Below are positions 12,001 through 45,000 of a stretch of 64,000 nt of DNA, piece after piece. The stretch is from Thalia democratica (lineage: Eukaryota). Position 1 is the first letter of the stretch; each line of letters opens with the position of its first letter. The stretch covers positions 105,090,001 through 105,154,000 of the forward strand of contig OZ241826.1 of assembly GCA_965202585.1 (NCBI GenBank), written 5' to 3'. Made by a program: the position numbers.

Positions 12001-15000
12001 CATACAGCAATTTATGTTCGTCTTCTATCATGTATCCGAAAAACAAATTGGAAGCTACCCAAGAGTAGCTATACAACATACATTTCACTATTTTTACTAA
12101 CGACCCTGCAAGCTTGATGCCATGCATTTATTAAGAGAGCAAATAATATTGAGCTCTTTTAATAACAAGTCTTTTATGTGCTTTAGTTTTCAGTATCTAG
12201 TTGTGCTTATCAAAAAGGAGTAACATTATGATTATTTTGAATTAATATCAATAGTGCAGATCTGTGACCTCAAATTAACTATTTTAGCACTAATCAGATC
12301 TATTACTAACAAGTCAAGAGTTTTTAATTCAGATTTTTTTGTACTAGTAATTCTATCAGAAACTTTATTATTGGTTTAGAGAAAATTTTAACAATGAAAA
12401 GTTTTTTGATTTAAAATGAAGTTTATCACAACTGCATGGATAAAATAAAATTTCAATGGCTAAATAAAGTAGTTTGTTTAAAAGTTATATATCATTTATC
12501 TGTTAGTTTTGTGTAAAAATGTTAATTAAGGAATCAATTTCATTCTTACAGGCACTTTTCTTAAATAAACTAAAAGCATAAATACACCATTAGCTGTATT
12601 GTCAAAATATCGACTGCTTAATGTGGTTATAATTTAAGTATTCTAACGCAGTTTATTACTAAAATACCAAAATATAAACGTTTCTAAAGACTTTAACCGC
12701 AAATTTTTTTTAAGGTGATCATAAACTTACTAAGAGCTAGATGAAGTAGTTTATATTTTACAAAAACGCCATTTATTTTCAAGCTTAAATGAAAAACGAA
12801 AACGTTAATCGTAAAGATAAGTAAATAATTACATTATAAATATTTTAAGAGCATAAGCAACTTAATGCGCTTTTAATTAAATTAAGGTATTTACCTTTGT
12901 GTACATTAATAACAACGTATATACTGCTTTTTAATTATCTTGACTCTACACATGCAATTTTTCCAACATGTTAAATTTTTTTTTTCAAACTGCAGTCTCA
13001 ACTGCAATGTAGTTTTTATGCAGCTAAAACATTTTTTTTTTAAATTGTTCTTTACACATACACGTTCGCTGTAATTAATATTTAATAACGGTTGGTATTT
13101 GAAGCTACTTAATAGGGCTTATACACATTTGAAATATGAATATGATTTATAAAAGTTTACTCTTAAAAATACTTTTAATAACTCTTACGGAAGCAAATAC
13201 GAGTATATTTAAAGCCTCTAATATTGTATTAAATATACTTTAAGTTTCAAGTTTTTTTACGATAATCTAATCTACAACATCAACGAAAAACAATGGATTG
13301 CAAACGTTTCGAAACTTCAAGTTTTAAAAAGACTGTGCTCACACATTCAAACTCTGCAGTCTCGCACGCGCAGTGACGCAACGTAGCTTTTGATTGAGAA
13401 AAGTATTATTTGAAGTTGTACTAAATTTTTATCCCAATAATGCCATTAACTATATATCTGAAGATTAAATTTGGGTTCAATTTAAAGTCACGGTATGTGG
13501 CTAATTTAGACAATAGAATAAGCGTAAATTTTACTTTTAAAAGTTTTATGAAGTAAACGAACTTGAATAATTGTTTTGTCTGTATTTAAAATTGGTAGTT
13601 TTACTATAAATTACAAAACGAAAGTTTTACTATAAATTACAAAACGAAATGAATTTGAAAGAATAAATTCATTATTTCTCCTCAAGTAGTTGAGATCTCT
13701 CTATTTGTTTTCTTAAAACCAAAACATATAATAAATTGGAAAACAGTTAAATTTTTTAAACATTTTAAACCTTTTTTTTTTTGTTTTACTGCGCACATGC
13801 ATTCAAAATCTGCAGTCTCGCACGAACAGTGACGTAATATAGCTTTTGATTGAGAAAAGTGTTATTTGAAGTTGTACGAAAATTTAAGCATGTGCGTACA
13901 GTTAACACAGGTTTTTTCCAAACAGGTTCAAATTTAAAGCCACGATATGTGGCTAGTATTAAATAATTATGTAAACATAAATATTACAAATAAAAAGTTT
14001 AATGAAGCTAACTAATTTAAATAGTTGTGTTCGTATTTAAAGTTGGTGTTTTATACCATAAATTACAGCACTGTTATTAAGTTGTGACATTTTAAAGCAT
14101 TTTTTAATATTATGTTACTTTCGTACCTTTTTCTAATATATTTCCGCAATATAATAAATTTAATTCTCGTTATATCATCTAGTATTCTTCCACAGTTCGT
14201 ATTCGCCAAAACACACGAAGCTGCTTGCTTCAACTAACTTCAGTAAACATACATGAATAAAAATATAATTTAACTAACTTAATACTTTTACAGTATTATT
14301 TTCAGTTTGGACTAAAAACTTCTCGTTATAAACCAACTTATAATATTTATCTTATAACTTTATATTTATTTTACAGTCGGTTTCGCAAAATCACCAAAAA
14401 CTTCTTTTTTTATAATAATTTTTAATATTTTATAACTTTTTATTTTTTTTTAGTTCGGATTCGCGAAAACACCAGAAAGTTCTTGTTTTAAAATCACTTT
14501 GATATTTTGTAAATATTTTACAATTTATTTTATTATTATTTAATTTTCAGTTTGGATTCGCGAAAACACCAGAAACTTCGTGCTTGTGGGTCGAAGGAGA
14601 TGCCAGCGAAAGTTTTTTCAAAAAGTTTGTTTTTTTATTTTATTTTTGATAAATTTATGTTTAAAAACTTATTTATAATTATATGTTTCAATAAATTCAA
14701 TTTATGAGTTTTTAGATTGAAAATTATTTTTATGTATTCAAAAAAATTTTCATTCAACATTTTAATATATGCCAGTAAAAGTTTATCTAAAAGTTTGTTT
14801 TTGTTTATTTTCAAATCCCTTTTTTAGTAAATATACTGTTTAAATTAAGAAGTTTCAAAAATTTTTTTTAAATTCAAATAATATTAAGCGCTTTTTTTAG
14901 GTAAGTGAAATTAAAAAAATTAAATATTAATATTTTTCAAAATTGGAGTTCGAAAAGTTAATGTGGTTGATAATTTTTTTGGTGTTTAAATTATTTACTT

Positions 15001-42000: not shown

Positions 42001-45000
42001 ACAGCTCAGCAATGTTGGAACGAGACGAACTCCGCTTACAAAACCTGATGAAGTACAACGACGAAACGTATGTTGGAAATGAAAACGAGCAGAGACAACT
42101 GGAAGAACTTCAGAGGCAGTTGGATGAGCTCAATAGGAACGACACCAGTAAGGGATTCTTCAGTTGTTTCGTTGAAAAGCATAATGAGGAGGAGAACAAG
42201 AACAAGGCGGATCTTTTCTGGAAGGACATGGATACGAGGTCTTTGAGATTTGTGTAAAAGTATCTGCATGAATAAAAAAAAATTATAGACAAATTGGCTC
42301 TTTTTAAAAGGAAATGCTTGCTTTATTAGAAAATTTATATTGTATCTCATTAAATGAATTTAAAGATAGCTTTGCATTGCCTTTAGTTTTTAATAACAAA
42401 TTATATAATATCTTTTAGTAGTTTTAGGAGTATTTAAAAAAAGTTTTGTACTTGATTTTTAGAGCATGAATTGAAAGTTTTTATAATTATTTTATGTCTA
42501 CTCTAAGTAGTGTTTGCAATTTGTTGGAAAAAAACTAATAAACTCTTTATATTGTATGTTAAGTTGTTGTTATAATTTAAAATTTGTTTATTGGGATCAA
42601 AAAGGTTTAATTACACTAGTTTGAAAAAATAGTATTGGACTTTTTTTTATAAAGATCTTAGATCTATTTAAATATTTGAAAAAAATATTTTAGTTTAATC
42701 TATTGAATTTAGTAGCTTTATAGACCCTTATATAGTTGTGAATAATTTTTTTACCTTGAAAAGTTAATTGGGGTCCATTAAGTTTTTGTTTTAGAGTATT
42801 TACAAAAAATTTAAAACTGCTACAGTGATCTATGTGAAATAAACAAGTTAATATTTTGTTTAAAAAAGTACTACAGATTAAGTAATGAATGTGTTTTTGT
42901 TTTGTTTACAGAAGTAAACGAATATAGTACTTCTAACAAGTATTTTTTAGGCGTAACTACAGCAAATACTAATATTTTTTTTTAAATTCTAACACATTTA
43001 TATATAATCTTCATTAAACTTCATAGTCTTCTCTTAGACCGCGGTTTGTTGATATAGTATATTGTTGTTAATATTTATTTATATTACCAATTTATATAGT
43101 TTGTGTCACCTACTTGAATATGAACGTTTCATGCTTGTGATAGTTTGTAAGTCTTGTCCTTAATTGTATTTTTTTTAAATGCTGTGAAAATTTCATTTCA
43201 CCCAAATATTAGAAGTTAAAGGTGTCAAATCTAAATATCTTTTGTTTATTGAAAAAAAACTTATACGAATAAATAAATAAAAGATTATGATAAGCACAAT
43301 CAAAATAAAGAAACTTTAAACCTATTATTCCAAATAAAAAATAAATAATATTTAAAATAAATGGAACTTATTTATTAGTTAAAACTGTTTTTTAGTTATA
43401 TTTTTTAGTGATTACTAAATTCATTTTAAAACAGACTATTTATTTTAAATTTGTAAGTTTATTACTTGAATTTTGTATGAAAAAGCGTAATAATGTTCAA
43501 AAGCGATAAAATGACCAATACCTCTAAATATATTAATAACAAAACATAAAATAAAACCAATCAATGTATCAATAAAACATAAAACAATGTAATATTTTAC
43601 AGATAAAAACATATTAAAGCCTAGGAATTGGATGCATTTTCTGTTGACTTTTTGTTCATTTGTTTTAAATGCTTTACGCTATGGTTAGAGGACGTAACAT
43701 ATATATATTATTAATAATACGCTACGGTTTTTTGATACAACTGTTTACCTAGCTTATCGATAGACTAGTTCATCATTCAAGTTATTAGATTGATAATAAC
43801 ATGAAAAATAAGTCAATACACTCATATTCAAGCATGTTGCAATAGTGCTTTAATAATATTACACACCTACAATTCCTTCTGACGAGCCTCAGTTCTACTG
43901 ATTTTTGTAATGCACAATATTACATCATACTGTTTTTTTATTTTTTTGCATAACTTTTGTACAGTGCTTTTTATTTTGAATTTAATTGGCTGATGATTAA
44001 AGCTTTATGAAACATATGTACCATTATTTTTAAAATCTTACTTTTTCAATTAATTATTTAAAAGCCTTTCAAGTGGGCTCAGTAGAAGGTGTTCAAGTTT
44101 GAATAATAACCTTATTTTATATATATATATATATATTTGACTTATAGCTAATTTTCTTATGACGTCACTATTAAACACATTACTACCCTTCATTAAAACC
44201 AACTGAAGTAACATTGAAGCGTTATATACTAGTTTAACGACTTTTAACTTATTTTTAATACTTTAATCTTCTATGACGTCATAATCAAGTATACTACTTG
44301 TACAGACACGAGAGCATATTCTCCTCACCCTCGAAACCTGCGCAAAAAGTTGAGAAAGTTCCTCCGAAGAACATTTTCGAGCTGATGCTGTCGCCCGACG
44401 CGGGAGGAGGAACGAGTAAAAGTGAGGAGAAAATATTTTTTTTATTTTTGGTCTATTAATATTATGATTTGTCCTTTAAAAATAACCTACACTGAAAGTT
44501 ATTACTTGGTTGTACCTAAATTAAGAAGAAATTTTTCAATAAAATAAGTTTCGAGTTTAATTATCTTTCTGTTTTATCTCTAAAAATGAAATAAACAGTA
44601 CGATCTTTTAACGTAGACACACTGGATAATTTTAACATCATTTTCTCCTGTTCAGAGATACCAGCGGCTTCATCCATTACGTCTTCATCCAACAAAAATC
44701 AAGAGCATTCAAAAAACTTTTCAACAACCAATGAGCATTCAAAAAACTTTTCAACAACAAATGAGCATTCAAAAAACTTTTCAACAACCAATGAGCATTC
44801 AAAAAACTTTTCAACAACCAATGAGCATTCAAAAAACTTTTCAACAACCAATGAGCATTCAAAAAACTTGCACCCTCTCAGTGATCAGCCGGCTTGCGCT
44901 GGGAGCGGAACTGTCAACGCCGGCAACGCGACTACTGTGACGTCACAACCGGACGTCGCGTCGCACAAGGACGATGCGTCACAACACGAACGCGCGTCGT

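What the first reader, a model, noticed from the sequence alone, without database searches (positions are those of the whole stretch)
14185..42060. Recurrent 'exon echoes': tandem partial duplications centred on splice sites at six exon boundaries of one gene
Six of the first twelve exons have adjacent intronic copies of one exon end with or next to its splice site: acceptor side at 14551, 15997, 17982 and 42005; donor side at 36066 and 36829. Ages range from near-identical to barely alignable. Several differ from the live exon mostly at synonymous positions, which neutral decay of a dead copy does not predict. Possible explanations (inference): the copies were or are coding alternatives; live exons undergo fast directional GC3 change; or duplications arise between diverged alleles.
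Basis: partly seen in the sequence, partly recalled or inferred. Interest (0 to 1): 0.68.

Follow-up and report, generated by a model that had tools for sequence, protein, structure and literature searches.

The report
Dead splice-site echoes beside exons
One long gene carries seven small tandem duplications that each straddle an exon edge, leaving decaying, unused copies of the exon end and its splice site in the intron; this is a known kind of repeat, unusual here only in how many cluster at exon edges.

Summary
Six of the first twelve exons of a + strand gene (14551 to its stop at 62238-62240) have intronic head-to-tail copies of one exon end plus its splice site. I found a seventh array on the donor side of exon 1. 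Copies range from 96-99% identical to about 50-60%. Echo-versus-exon differences are indeed mostly synonymous: 89 of 159, against 46 expected. Changes private to one echo are codon-blind (9 synonymous of 37, 8.6 expected). Changes private to the live exon are synonymous (14 of 18, 7.1 expected). So the echoes decay neutrally and the live exon evolves under purifying selection. Every correctly placed echo would put an in-frame stop into the message, so none is a coding alternative now. Each array is a junction-spanning minisatellite with reiterated pseudo-splice sites, a kind described for human F7, CBS and others. What remains unexplained is the clustering at exon edges: 7 of 10 arrays contain a junction (1.2-2.1 expected), and with exons masked 5 of 8 arrays end within 20 nt of an exon. 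A rise in third-position GC in exon 2 is weakly suggested (P=0.037). Organism and gene family stayed unidentified.

The parts
14185..14585 (+). Array A. Four decayed copies of the acceptor plus the first ~36 nt of exon 1 (copies start 14196, 14306, 14377, 14454). The array ends in the live exon start at 14551.
   Evidence: Identity to the live exon part is 0.74-0.86. AG is kept in 4 of 4 copies and each has an in-frame stop.
14600..14811 (+). Array A2. The donor end of exon 1 (exon ends 14624, donor GTTTGT) and one downstream copy at 14769-14811 that keeps GT.
   Evidence: 84% over 44 nt; score 50, p=1/301.
15583..16052 (+). Array B. Two AT-rich copies (from 15593 and about 15838) of the acceptor plus at least the first 56 nt of exon 2 plus the intron tail. 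The live exon starts at 15997. The second copy holds an internal 13-nt repeat.
   Evidence: Identity to live is 0.61 and 0.50. Copy-to-copy identity is 77.5% over 138 nt.
17471..17997 (+). Array C. A 101-nt unit, 5.2 copies, 96-99% identical. Each unit carries the acceptor and the first 16 nt of exon 4 (live start 17982).
   Evidence: There is an in-frame stop 7-11 codons into each of the 3 correctly placed copies.
36016..36380 (+). Array D. The last 51 nt of exon 9 plus the donor (exon ends 36066), followed by three downstream copies. GT is kept in two and lost in the third.
   Evidence: Identity to live is 0.92, 0.80 and 0.80.
36782..36932 (+). Array E. The last 48 nt of exon 10 plus the donor (exon ends 36829) and one copy 90 nt downstream whose GT is lost.
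   Evidence: (83.6% over 61 nt).
41449..42059 (+). Array F. Four copies (41487, 41630, 41769, 41891) of the acceptor plus the first ~55 nt of exon 12 (live start 42005). The unit is about 144 nt.
   Evidence: AG is kept in 4 of 4. One copy has a 1-nt insertion. All have in-frame stops.
14551..42238 (+). The twelve live exons that carry or lack echoes: 14551-14624, 15997-16181, 16843-17045, 17982-18064, 18380-18575, 18884-19145, 20972-21301, 21617-21758, 35895-36066, 36668-36829, 40072-40295, 42005-42238 (the last donor is uncertain, 42238 or 42253).
   Evidence: All have AG/GT, open frames and 11 of 11 compatible phases. GC is 0.33-0.57 in exons against 0.17-0.28 in introns.
60585..60823 (+). 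Contrast case in the same gene. A whole 48-nt exon is duplicated with its flanks (60585-60632 and 60776-60823). Both copies have AG and GT and the same phase.
   Evidence: There are 11 differences, 5 synonymous against 1.94 expected (P=0.015), in the frame set by the upstream exon's phase.

Best explanation
Each 'echo' is the product of a local tandem duplication. Repeated unequal exchange or slippage then followed. The unit (82-243 nt) happened to straddle an exon-intron junction.

Such a duplication leaves the message unchanged as long as the spliceosome uses the copy that is contiguous with the body of the exon. That is the last acceptor or the first donor. The other copies become intronic pseudo-splice sites with a stub of exon attached.

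The stubs are dead and decay neutrally, with an A/T-ward bias. The live exon end keeps evolving under purifying selection. Pairwise differences are therefore enriched for synonymous sites.

Shown here: the anatomy, the neutral pattern in the echoes, the constrained pattern in the live exon, the stops that make the echoes non-coding, and the concentration at exon edges in this gene.

Inferred: how the duplications arise, that the echo sites are silent or feed decay, and why junctions are over-represented. My leading guess for the last point is longer survival and better detectability of exon-derived sequence next to exons. A mutational hot spot is the main alternative.
For: Anatomy:
- The arrays are head-to-tail, with the live exon always the inner terminal copy.
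- The copy nearest the exon is the most similar to it in all three old multi-copy arrays: 0.86, 0.92 and 0.82.

Codon partition over families A, B, D and F:
- Echo singletons: 9 S of 37, expected 8.56, P(>=)=0.51, codon positions 11/17/9.
- Live-unique changes: 14 S of 18, expected 7.12, 0 of 4000 permutations reach it.
- Live-unique versus echo changes: Fisher p=0.0018.
- Direction of echo changes: 24 GC>AT against 13 AT>GC.

Coding and constraint:
- In-frame stops occur in all 13 correctly placed acceptor-side echoes and all 5 donor-side echoes.
- The exon-derived parts of echoes are no better conserved between echoes than the intron-derived parts (0.65-0.88 against 0.69-0.89). They do hold far fewer gaps: 0-4 in most pairs and 10-22 in pairs with the copy at 14306, against 4-39.
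- The whole-exon pair at 60585/60776 does show a synonymous excess. The test can therefore detect constraint where a copy could be spliced in.

Precedent:
- Minisatellites whose first monomer spans an exon-intron boundary, with silent pseudo-donor sites, are described for human F7. The introduction of PMC1557585 also names 6-16, CBS, LAMIN B2 and PDGF (abstract and passages read).
- Tandem repeats at exon-intron boundaries are described in PMC2812944 (passages read).
Against: - No transcript data exist here, so the silence of the echo splice sites is assumed.
- Random placement does not predict the concentration at exon edges. The plain 'tolerated accident' model is therefore incomplete.
- 18 sites with three or more states (15 at third positions) were set aside in the partition.
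- Changes shared by some echoes show a synonymous excess (7 S of 13 against 3.16, P=0.010). I read these as live-lineage changes between successive duplications, but they could also mean early constraint on echoes.
- Family B's live-unique changes are almost all A/T in the echoes against G/C in the live exon. Simple equilibrium evolution of the exon does not predict that.
- The analysis covers one gene that was picked because it looked odd.
Confidence: 0.8

Rival explanations
1. Exon-intron junctions are mutational hot spots for tandem duplication in this genome. The cause could be breaks or template switching at the sharp step from about 20% GC intron to about 45-55% GC exon, or a link to chromatin or splicing. 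On this view the clustering reflects origin and not survival.
For: - 7 of 10 annotation-blind arrays contain a junction. Expectation is 2.11 when array intervals are placed at random (P=0.0011) and 1.16 when units are placed (0 of 20000).
- With the live exons masked, so that both compared copies are intronic, 5 of 8 arrays end within 20 nt of an exon edge (null mean 0.13, 0 of 50000). 6 of 8 end within 50 nt (null 0.33).
- The youngest array (C, 96-99%) is at a junction.
- Array C has the form P(QP)x5 with a 24-nt flanking repeat. That looks like filler insertion at a staggered break.
Against: - The position-matched test is weaker: 7/24 against 16/149, OR 3.4, p=0.022.
- Three of the five masked-exon junction arrays (A, D, F) would probably not be detected from their gap-ridden AT-rich parts alone. 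Detectability therefore favours arrays that contain exon-derived sequence.
- No partial echo was found at the many junctions of the downstream half of the gene.
- No k-mer separates echo-bearing junctions from the other junctions.
- This is a single gene chosen after the fact.
Confidence: 0.3
2. The live exons, above all exon 2, have undergone fast directional gain of G/C at synonymous sites since the duplications. The echoes are then fossils of an AT-richer ancestral exon.
For: - At live-unique sites the echo state is A/T and the live state G/C in 14 of 18, with 2 the reverse. In family B the count is 11 of 13.
- Family B's live-unique changes are 9 S of 13 against 5.83 expected if they were neutral decay on a shared echo stem (P=0.037).
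- GC3 of the head of exon 2 is 0.89, against 0.33 at the same sites in the first copy. At positions 1 and 2 GC is 0.50 against 0.36.
- GC3 differs widely among exons of this gene, 0.25 to 0.74.
Against: - Outside family B the direction is 3 AT>GC to 2 GC>AT, so there is no trend.
- The two B copies are sisters. Shared A/T states can be decay on their common stem, and P=0.037 in one hand-picked exon is weak.
- There is no outgroup to polarise the changes.
- The second copy's first ~13 aligned nt are doubtful.
Confidence: 0.25
3. The echoes are, or recently were, coding alternatives. They would be alternative splice sites or mutually exclusive exon starts and ends kept by selection on the protein.
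For: - Pairwise synonymous excess.
- AG is kept in 12 of the 13 correctly placed acceptor-side echoes and GT in 3 of 5 donor-side echoes.
- Changes shared by some echoes are 7 S of 13 against 3.16 expected.
- A true whole-exon duplicate exists in the same gene.
Against: - Echo-private changes are codon-blind: 9 S of 37 against 8.56.
- Every echo extension has an in-frame stop within 39 codons, and most extension lengths are not multiples of 3.
- The copies are partial exons without the far splice site.
- One copy has a frameshifting insertion and another an internal 13-nt repeat.
Confidence: 0.05
4. The arrays are retained because reiterated splice sites act in regulation. They could be decoys that divert part of the transcripts into decay, as happens in self-regulating splicing-factor genes, or helpers for recognising small GC-rich exons in long AT-rich introns.
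For: - Seven arrays lie in one gene, all in its long-intron 5' half.
- Splice dinucleotides are mostly kept.
- Exon 2 has a weak likeness to RNA-recognition-motif clusters in a feature search (score 0.90, 159 shared features), and exon 4 is rich in Arg, Ser and Lys.
Against: - Keeping AG or GT in 15 of 18 copies is not clearly above what roughly 20-25% divergence allows. That estimate is mine and I ran no test.
- The exon-derived parts are not more conserved between echoes than the rest.
- The motif likeness is below the tool's own reliability marks, and Pfam finds nothing.
- There are no expression data.
Confidence: 0.08
5. Assembly artefact, or duplication created between diverged alleles.
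For: The 17471-17997 array is near-identical, and long tandem arrays are hard to assemble. I have no direct evidence.
Against: - The window holds no N.
- Seven arrays have graded divergence from 50% to 99% and up to five copies each. Indels and lost splice sites differ by copy.
- Haplotype collapse would give two near-equal copies and not graded series.
Confidence: 0.03

Closest known systems
Minisatellites whose first monomer spans an exon-intron boundary (human F7 intron 7, 37-bp unit). The introduction of PMC1557585 also names interferon-inducible 6-16, CBS intron 13, LAMIN B2 (100-bp unit) and PDGF (81-bp unit).
   Same: - A head-to-tail array whose terminal unit contains the end of the exon and the splice site, so the splice site is reiterated in the intron.
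- Unit sizes are alike (37-100 bp there, 82-243 nt here).
- For F7, only the most upstream donor, the one next to the exon, is used. That matches the geometry of arrays A2, D and E.
   Different: - Those cases are donor-side, one array per gene, and mostly young and polymorphic.
- Here four of the seven arrays are acceptor-side and seven sit in one gene.
- Ages here run from 99% down to about 50% identity.
- Use or silence of the pseudo-sites is untested here.
Internal tandem repeats at exon-intron boundaries that alter gene structure in human segmental duplications (PMC2812944)
   Same: Tandem repeats overlap exon-intron boundaries and change intron content. That study listed 162 candidate alignments at boundaries and kept 27 intron modifications after manual checks (passage read).
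   Different: - That work compares paralogs and stresses new introns and alternative transcripts.
- Here the introns pre-exist, the message is presumably unchanged, and the copies are decaying.
Intron creation by tandem duplication of an exonic AGGT segment (Rogers model; PMC3265369, PMC4974935)
   Same: A short intragenic tandem duplication duplicates splice signals without changing the protein.
   Different: - In that model the new intron is made of exon sequence and is bounded by the two copies.
- Here the unit includes pre-existing intron, and the copies lie on one side of an existing junction.
- The effect is to lengthen an intron. No new intron is created.
Tandem exon duplication giving alternative or mutually exclusive exons (recalled: Kondrashov and Koonin 2001; Letunic, Copley and Bork 2002; not read here)
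   Same: The pair 60585-60632 / 60776-60823 fits. It is a whole exon with both splice sites, equal length (48 nt), the same phase, and a synonymous excess.
   Different: The seven echoes are partial exons with one splice site only, carry stops, and show no coding constraint.

Membership tests
Junction-spanning minisatellite with pseudo-splice sites (F7 intron 7 type) | Head-to-tail repeat array | tested here: met
   TRF periods are 78, 101, 89 and 144. Self-blastn offsets are 82-243. Two arrays (A2, E) have only one extra copy.
Junction-spanning minisatellite with pseudo-splice sites (F7 intron 7 type) | The terminal monomer contains the exon end and the splice site, so that the site recurs in the intron | tested here: met
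   AG precedes 12 of 13 correctly placed acceptor-side copies and GT follows 3 of 5 donor-side copies.
Junction-spanning minisatellite with pseudo-splice sites (F7 intron 7 type) | Only the exon-contiguous site is used; the pseudo-sites are silent or minor | not testable with these tools
   No transcript data. Use of any echo site would bring in an in-frame stop.
Junction-spanning minisatellite with pseudo-splice sites (F7 intron 7 type) | Copy number varies among individuals | not testable with these tools
   Only one haplotype of one window is at hand.
Tandemly duplicated alternative or mutually exclusive exons | Whole exon with both splice sites duplicated, same length class and phase, both copies open | tested here: not met
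   The seven echoes are partial, hold one splice site, and all have in-frame stops. This feature is met only by the separate pair at 60585/60776.
Tandemly duplicated alternative or mutually exclusive exons | Purifying selection on both copies | tested here: not met
   Echo-private changes are 9 S of 37 against 8.56 expected.
Intron gain by tandem duplication of an exonic AGGT segment | The start of the intron copies the start of the downstream exon and the end of the intron copies the end of the upstream exon, and the unit is wholly exonic | tested here: not met
   Each echo copies the exon on its own side together with adjacent intron. Junction 50-mers were compared only with the intron on their own side. 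I did not run the cross-comparison of the two ends of each intron.
Recursive splice sites (ratchet points) | An acceptor directly followed by a donor (AG|GT) inside a long intron | tested here: not met
   Echo acceptors are followed by the exon-like stub and not by GT.
RNA-recognition-motif protein (identity of the host gene) | Match to an RRM profile | tested here: not met
   - Pfam found no RRM in single-exon translations at E<=1.
- The feature search gave RRM clusters at 0.87-0.90 with 133-159 shared features, below the tool's 170 mark.
- No homolog of exon 2 turned up among 1.84 billion representatives or in the word-index search.
- Exons were searched one by one.

The most novel reading that the evidence does not exclude
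In this AT-rich genome the step from intron to GC-richer exon is itself a hot spot where tandem duplications are born. One possible route is staggered breaks repaired with filler, as the P(QP)n form of array 17471-17997 hints. Introns would then grow from their edges by copying exon ends and splice sites. The resulting echoes would be datable fossils showing that some exons, exon 2 among them, have since been driven to high GC3.
Probability: 0.15. Interest if true: 0.7.

Novelty: new member of a known kind. Interest (0 to 1): 0.36.

Why it matters
The apparent paradox of dead copies that differ at silent sites disappears once differences are assigned to lineages. That point matters for anyone who reads pseudo-exon divergence as a sign of function.

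Two things remain useful:
- Echoes give an internal outgroup-free contrast between neutral decay (24 GC>AT to 13 AT>GC) and constrained exon evolution in the same few hundred bases. This could be used genome-wide to measure mutation bias and forces acting on GC3.
- The clustering of arrays at exon edges, if it holds genome-wide for young arrays, would point to a junction-linked duplication process and a route of intron growth. If it does not hold, this gene is an ordinary if crowded example of a known repeat class.

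Tried and rejected
Identity of gene and organism:
- Pfam on 8 and then 13 single-exon or ORF translations gave nothing above cut-off.
- The word-index homolog search with exon 2 (longer proteins) and with the 538-aa exon (longer proteins) gave no hits.
- The full scan of 1.84 billion representatives with exon 2 gave 0 hits.
- Rfam and tRNA scans of the window gave 0.
- The upstream minus-strand ORF found four unnamed proteins only, which I did not follow.
- The organism therefore stays unknown. 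Nothing suggested a human contig (about 25% GC).
- Exons were searched one at a time. The joined spliced model was not built or searched.

Transposon origin of the intron-derived parts of the units:
- No other copy of these parts occurs in the window.

A sequence motif marking echo-bearing junctions:
- No k-mer of 4-6 nt differs between the 7 echo-bearing and 17 other junctions (best p=0.18). Exon-side GC is 0.47 against 0.45.

Special conservation of the exon-derived stub among echoes:
- Not seen.

Base composition alone as the cause of the synonymous excess:
- Rejected, because the permutation keeps the live base and the excess stays.

Other local repeats examined:
- 19160/19334 flank a short dispersed element 15 nt from a donor and hold no exon sequence.
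- 25738/25946, 34198/34387 and 58931/59102 are intronic.
- 61748/63014 is a dispersed repeat.

My own slips:
- I first placed the end of exon 4 at 18074 and saw a phase clash. The donor is at 18065-18066 (exon end 18064) and all phases then fit. Searches used 18074. A retest of the right junction gave score 14, p=1.
- Two of the five start coordinates for array C were off by 1-2 nt. I do not count them.

Literature:
- Gao and Lynch 2009 is not held. I know it only through PMC4974935 and from recall.
- Supplements were not consulted.

Full report
WHAT THE WINDOW IS

The window has no N and about 25% GC. GC- and CpG-richer blocks lie on the + strand. Nothing suggested a human contig.

From the sequence I placed twelve exons between 14551 and 42238. 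All have AG before and GT after, none has an in-frame stop, and 11 of 11 junction phases fit. I first misplaced the end of exon 4 by 10 nt. The right end is 18064.

Exons have 0.33-0.57 GC and introns 0.17-0.28. The gene runs on through many more exons with mostly short introns to a stop at 62238-62240.

I searched exon translations one at a time. The joined spliced model was left out.
- No family or homolog was found.
- A feature search gave a weak likeness of exon 2 to RNA-recognition-motif clusters (0.90, 159 shared features). I treat it as a lead only.
- Gene family and organism stay unknown.

THE OBSERVATION

It is real. They also recover one more, on the donor side of exon 1 (14600-14641 against 14769-14811).

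- Acceptor-side arrays end in the live exon starts at 14551 (4 copies), 15997 (2), 17982 (5, a 101-nt unit at 96-99% identity) and 42005 (4).
- Donor-side arrays begin in the live exon ends at 14624 (1 copy), 36066 (3) and 36829 (1).
- Units are 82-243 nt. Each holds 16 to about 57 nt of exon, the splice site and a stretch of intron.
- The live exon is always the inner terminal copy. This has to be so, because only that choice of splice site leaves the message unchanged.

IS IT MORE THAN CHANCE?

Within 14000-42300 the blind blastn gives ten local direct-repeat arrays.
- Seven contain a junction. Random placement of whole array intervals gives 2.11 (P=0.0011). Placement of single units gives 1.16 (0 of 20000).
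- In a position-matched test, 7 of 24 junction-centred 50-mers have a paralog within 800 nt of intron, against 16 of 149 intronic positions (OR 3.4, p=0.022). With a score of at least 31 the controls are 8 of 149 (p=0.0013).
- The live copy is frozen by selection, which could favour detection. I therefore masked the twelve exons and repeated the search. Eight arrays remain in which both compared copies are intronic. Five of them end within 20 nt of an exon edge (null mean 0.13, 0 of 50000), and six end within 50 nt (null 0.33).

Three cautions apply:
- Three of those five arrays (A, D, F) would probably be missed without their exon-derived parts, because the AT-rich parts are full of gaps.
- The downstream half of the gene has no partial echo at all.
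- This gene was chosen because it looked odd.

The enrichment holds in this gene, but I cannot say that it is a property of the genome.

THE SYNONYMOUS PUZZLE

In 14 echo-versus-live pairs, 89 of 159 differences are synonymous. Re-dealing the differences among sites with the same live base gives 46.0 +/- 4.5, and 0 of 2000 permutations reach 89. A/T-biased decay of G/C-rich third positions is therefore not the whole answer.

A pairwise difference sums two lineages, however, and live-lineage changes are counted once per echo. In the four families with at least three sequences I sorted variable sites by pattern.

| Class of change | Synonymous | Expected | Test | Codon positions 1/2/3 |
|---|---|---|---|---|
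| Private to one echo | 9 of 37 | 8.56 | P=0.51 | 11/17/9 |
| Private to the live exon | 14 of 18 | 7.12 | 0 of 4000 | 7/0/11 |
| Shared by some echoes | 7 of 13 | 3.16 | P=0.010 | 6/1/6 |

- The live-private and echo classes differ (Fisher p=0.0018).
- The shared class is expected if the exon changed silently between successive duplications. Early constraint on echoes would also give it.
- Eighteen sites with three or more states, 15 of them third positions, were set aside.

The echoes are dead copies decaying without regard to the codon. The live exon is under purifying selection.

NOT CODING ALTERNATIVES

- Each of the 13 correctly placed acceptor-side echoes and each of the 5 donor-side echoes brings an in-frame stop within 39 codons. 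Most extension lengths are not multiples of three.
- One copy has a frameshifting insertion and another an internal 13-nt repeat.
- AG is kept in 12 of 13 and GT in 3 of 5. I did not test this, but it does not look beyond what the divergence allows.
- The exon-derived stubs are no better conserved between echoes than the intron-derived parts.

The whole-exon pair serves as a positive control for the method. A complete 48-nt exon is duplicated with both splice sites at 60585-60632 and 60776-60823. It shows 5 synonymous of 11 differences against 1.94 expected (P=0.015), in the frame fixed by the upstream exon. That pair is a candidate pair of alternative exons.

DIRECTIONAL GC3 CHANGE

At the 18 live-private sites the echoes hold A/T and the exon G/C in 14, with 2 the reverse. 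Eleven of those 14 are in exon 2.

- The head of exon 2 has GC3 0.89, against 0.33 at the same sites in its first copy.
- If these were decay on the stem shared by the two sister copies, they should be codon-blind. They are 9 synonymous of 13 against 5.83 expected (P=0.037).
- This hints that exon 2 has gained G/C at silent sites since the duplication. It rests on one exon, has no outgroup, and shows no trend in the other families (3 to 2).
- Echo lineages go the other way (24 GC>AT, 13 AT>GC).

HOW IT MOST LIKELY WORKS

1. A local tandem duplication happens to straddle a junction.
2. The copy contiguous with the exon body goes on being spliced.
3. The array then gains copies by unequal exchange. 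In all three old multi-copy arrays the copy next to the exon is the most similar to it.
4. The outer copies decay.

For donors there is experimental precedent. In human F7 a 37-bp minisatellite spans the exon 7-intron 7 boundary, and only the most upstream of the identical donor sites is used. The same paper names further genes with such minisatellites (PMC1557585, abstract and passages read). Tandem repeats at exon-intron boundaries that alter introns are also described for human paralogs (PMC2812944, passages).

The Rogers model of intron birth by duplication of an exonic AGGT (PMC3265369 and PMC4974935, passages) is related but does not fit, because here the intron pre-exists and is only lengthened.

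WHY AT EXON EDGES? This is unexplained.

- My leading guess is survival and detectability. Exon-derived sequence stays gap-free, and sequence close to an exon is shielded from large deletions (inference).
- A junction-linked origin is the main rival. Array C has a 24-nt piece at both ends with no unit-like sequence outside it, which looks like filler insertion at a staggered break followed by amplification. The other arrays look like plain tandem series.
- No motif marks the echo-bearing junctions, and the intron-derived parts have no other copy in the window.

NOVELTY

Each array belongs to a known kind. Seven searches found donor-side single-gene cases and boundary repeats. They found no report of several arrays, acceptor-side ones included, in one gene, and no test of enrichment at junctions. 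That is absence from what I searched only. Supplements and Gao and Lynch 2009 were not seen.

I file this as a new member of a known kind. Interest is modest. The main value is the lineage-split test and the open question of enrichment.

Noticed in passing
window 60585-60632 and 60776-60823: A whole 48-nt exon is duplicated in tandem with about 80 nt of upstream intron. Both copies have AG and GT and the same phase, and differences show a synonymous excess. This is a candidate pair of alternative or mutually exclusive exons.
   Followed up: partly
window 44703-44869: A 30-nt unit is repeated 5.6 times at 98% identity inside the long open frame 44595-46514. It is in frame (10 residues per unit), so it is a young coding repeat in the same gene.
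   Followed up: partly
window 114-13500: The region upstream of the gene is built of large repeats: 136-1981 matches 6292-8113 (88%), 1981-2548 matches 5724-6291 (99.5%), 114-1281 matches 8089-9211, and 7458-8515 matches 10330-11485. A unit of about 2 kb is present at least four times.
   Followed up: no
window 13332-13615 and 13788-14067: A 280-nt segment is duplicated at 456-nt spacing (74%) just upstream of the first echo. Weaker copies lie at about 1361 and 7496. These may be repeated promoter or first-exon segments. Exon 1 has no start codon in its frame, so coding exons must lie upstream.
   Followed up: no
window 4347-5801, minus strand: A 484-residue open frame on the other strand holds a 132-nt (44-residue) in-frame repeat of 3.9 copies at 93% identity (4594-5105). 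Its only relatives found were four unnamed proteins (best 81% identity over 65% of the query).
   Followed up: partly
window 19203-19247, 1805-1850, 7939-7983, about 16345, about 10830, about 11490: A short dispersed element occurs in several introns and upstream. At 19160-19375 it sits between two 42-nt direct repeats, 15 nt from the donor of exon 6.
   Followed up: no
window 14551-42238: Third-position GC differs strongly between exons of the one gene. It is 0.74 in exon 2 and 0.25-0.33 in exons 8-10, which flank the 14-kb intron. CpG observed/expected ranges from 0.18 to 1.50.
   Followed up: partly
window 16843 and 16849: Two acceptor AGs lie 6 nt apart at the start of exon 3, and both keep the frame. 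This is a possible tandem acceptor.
   Followed up: no
window 21318-21350: Just after the donor of exon 7, a short acceptor-like motif (T-run, CAG, A-run) occurs twice and resembles the acceptor of exon 7 itself. It is too short to score.
   Followed up: no
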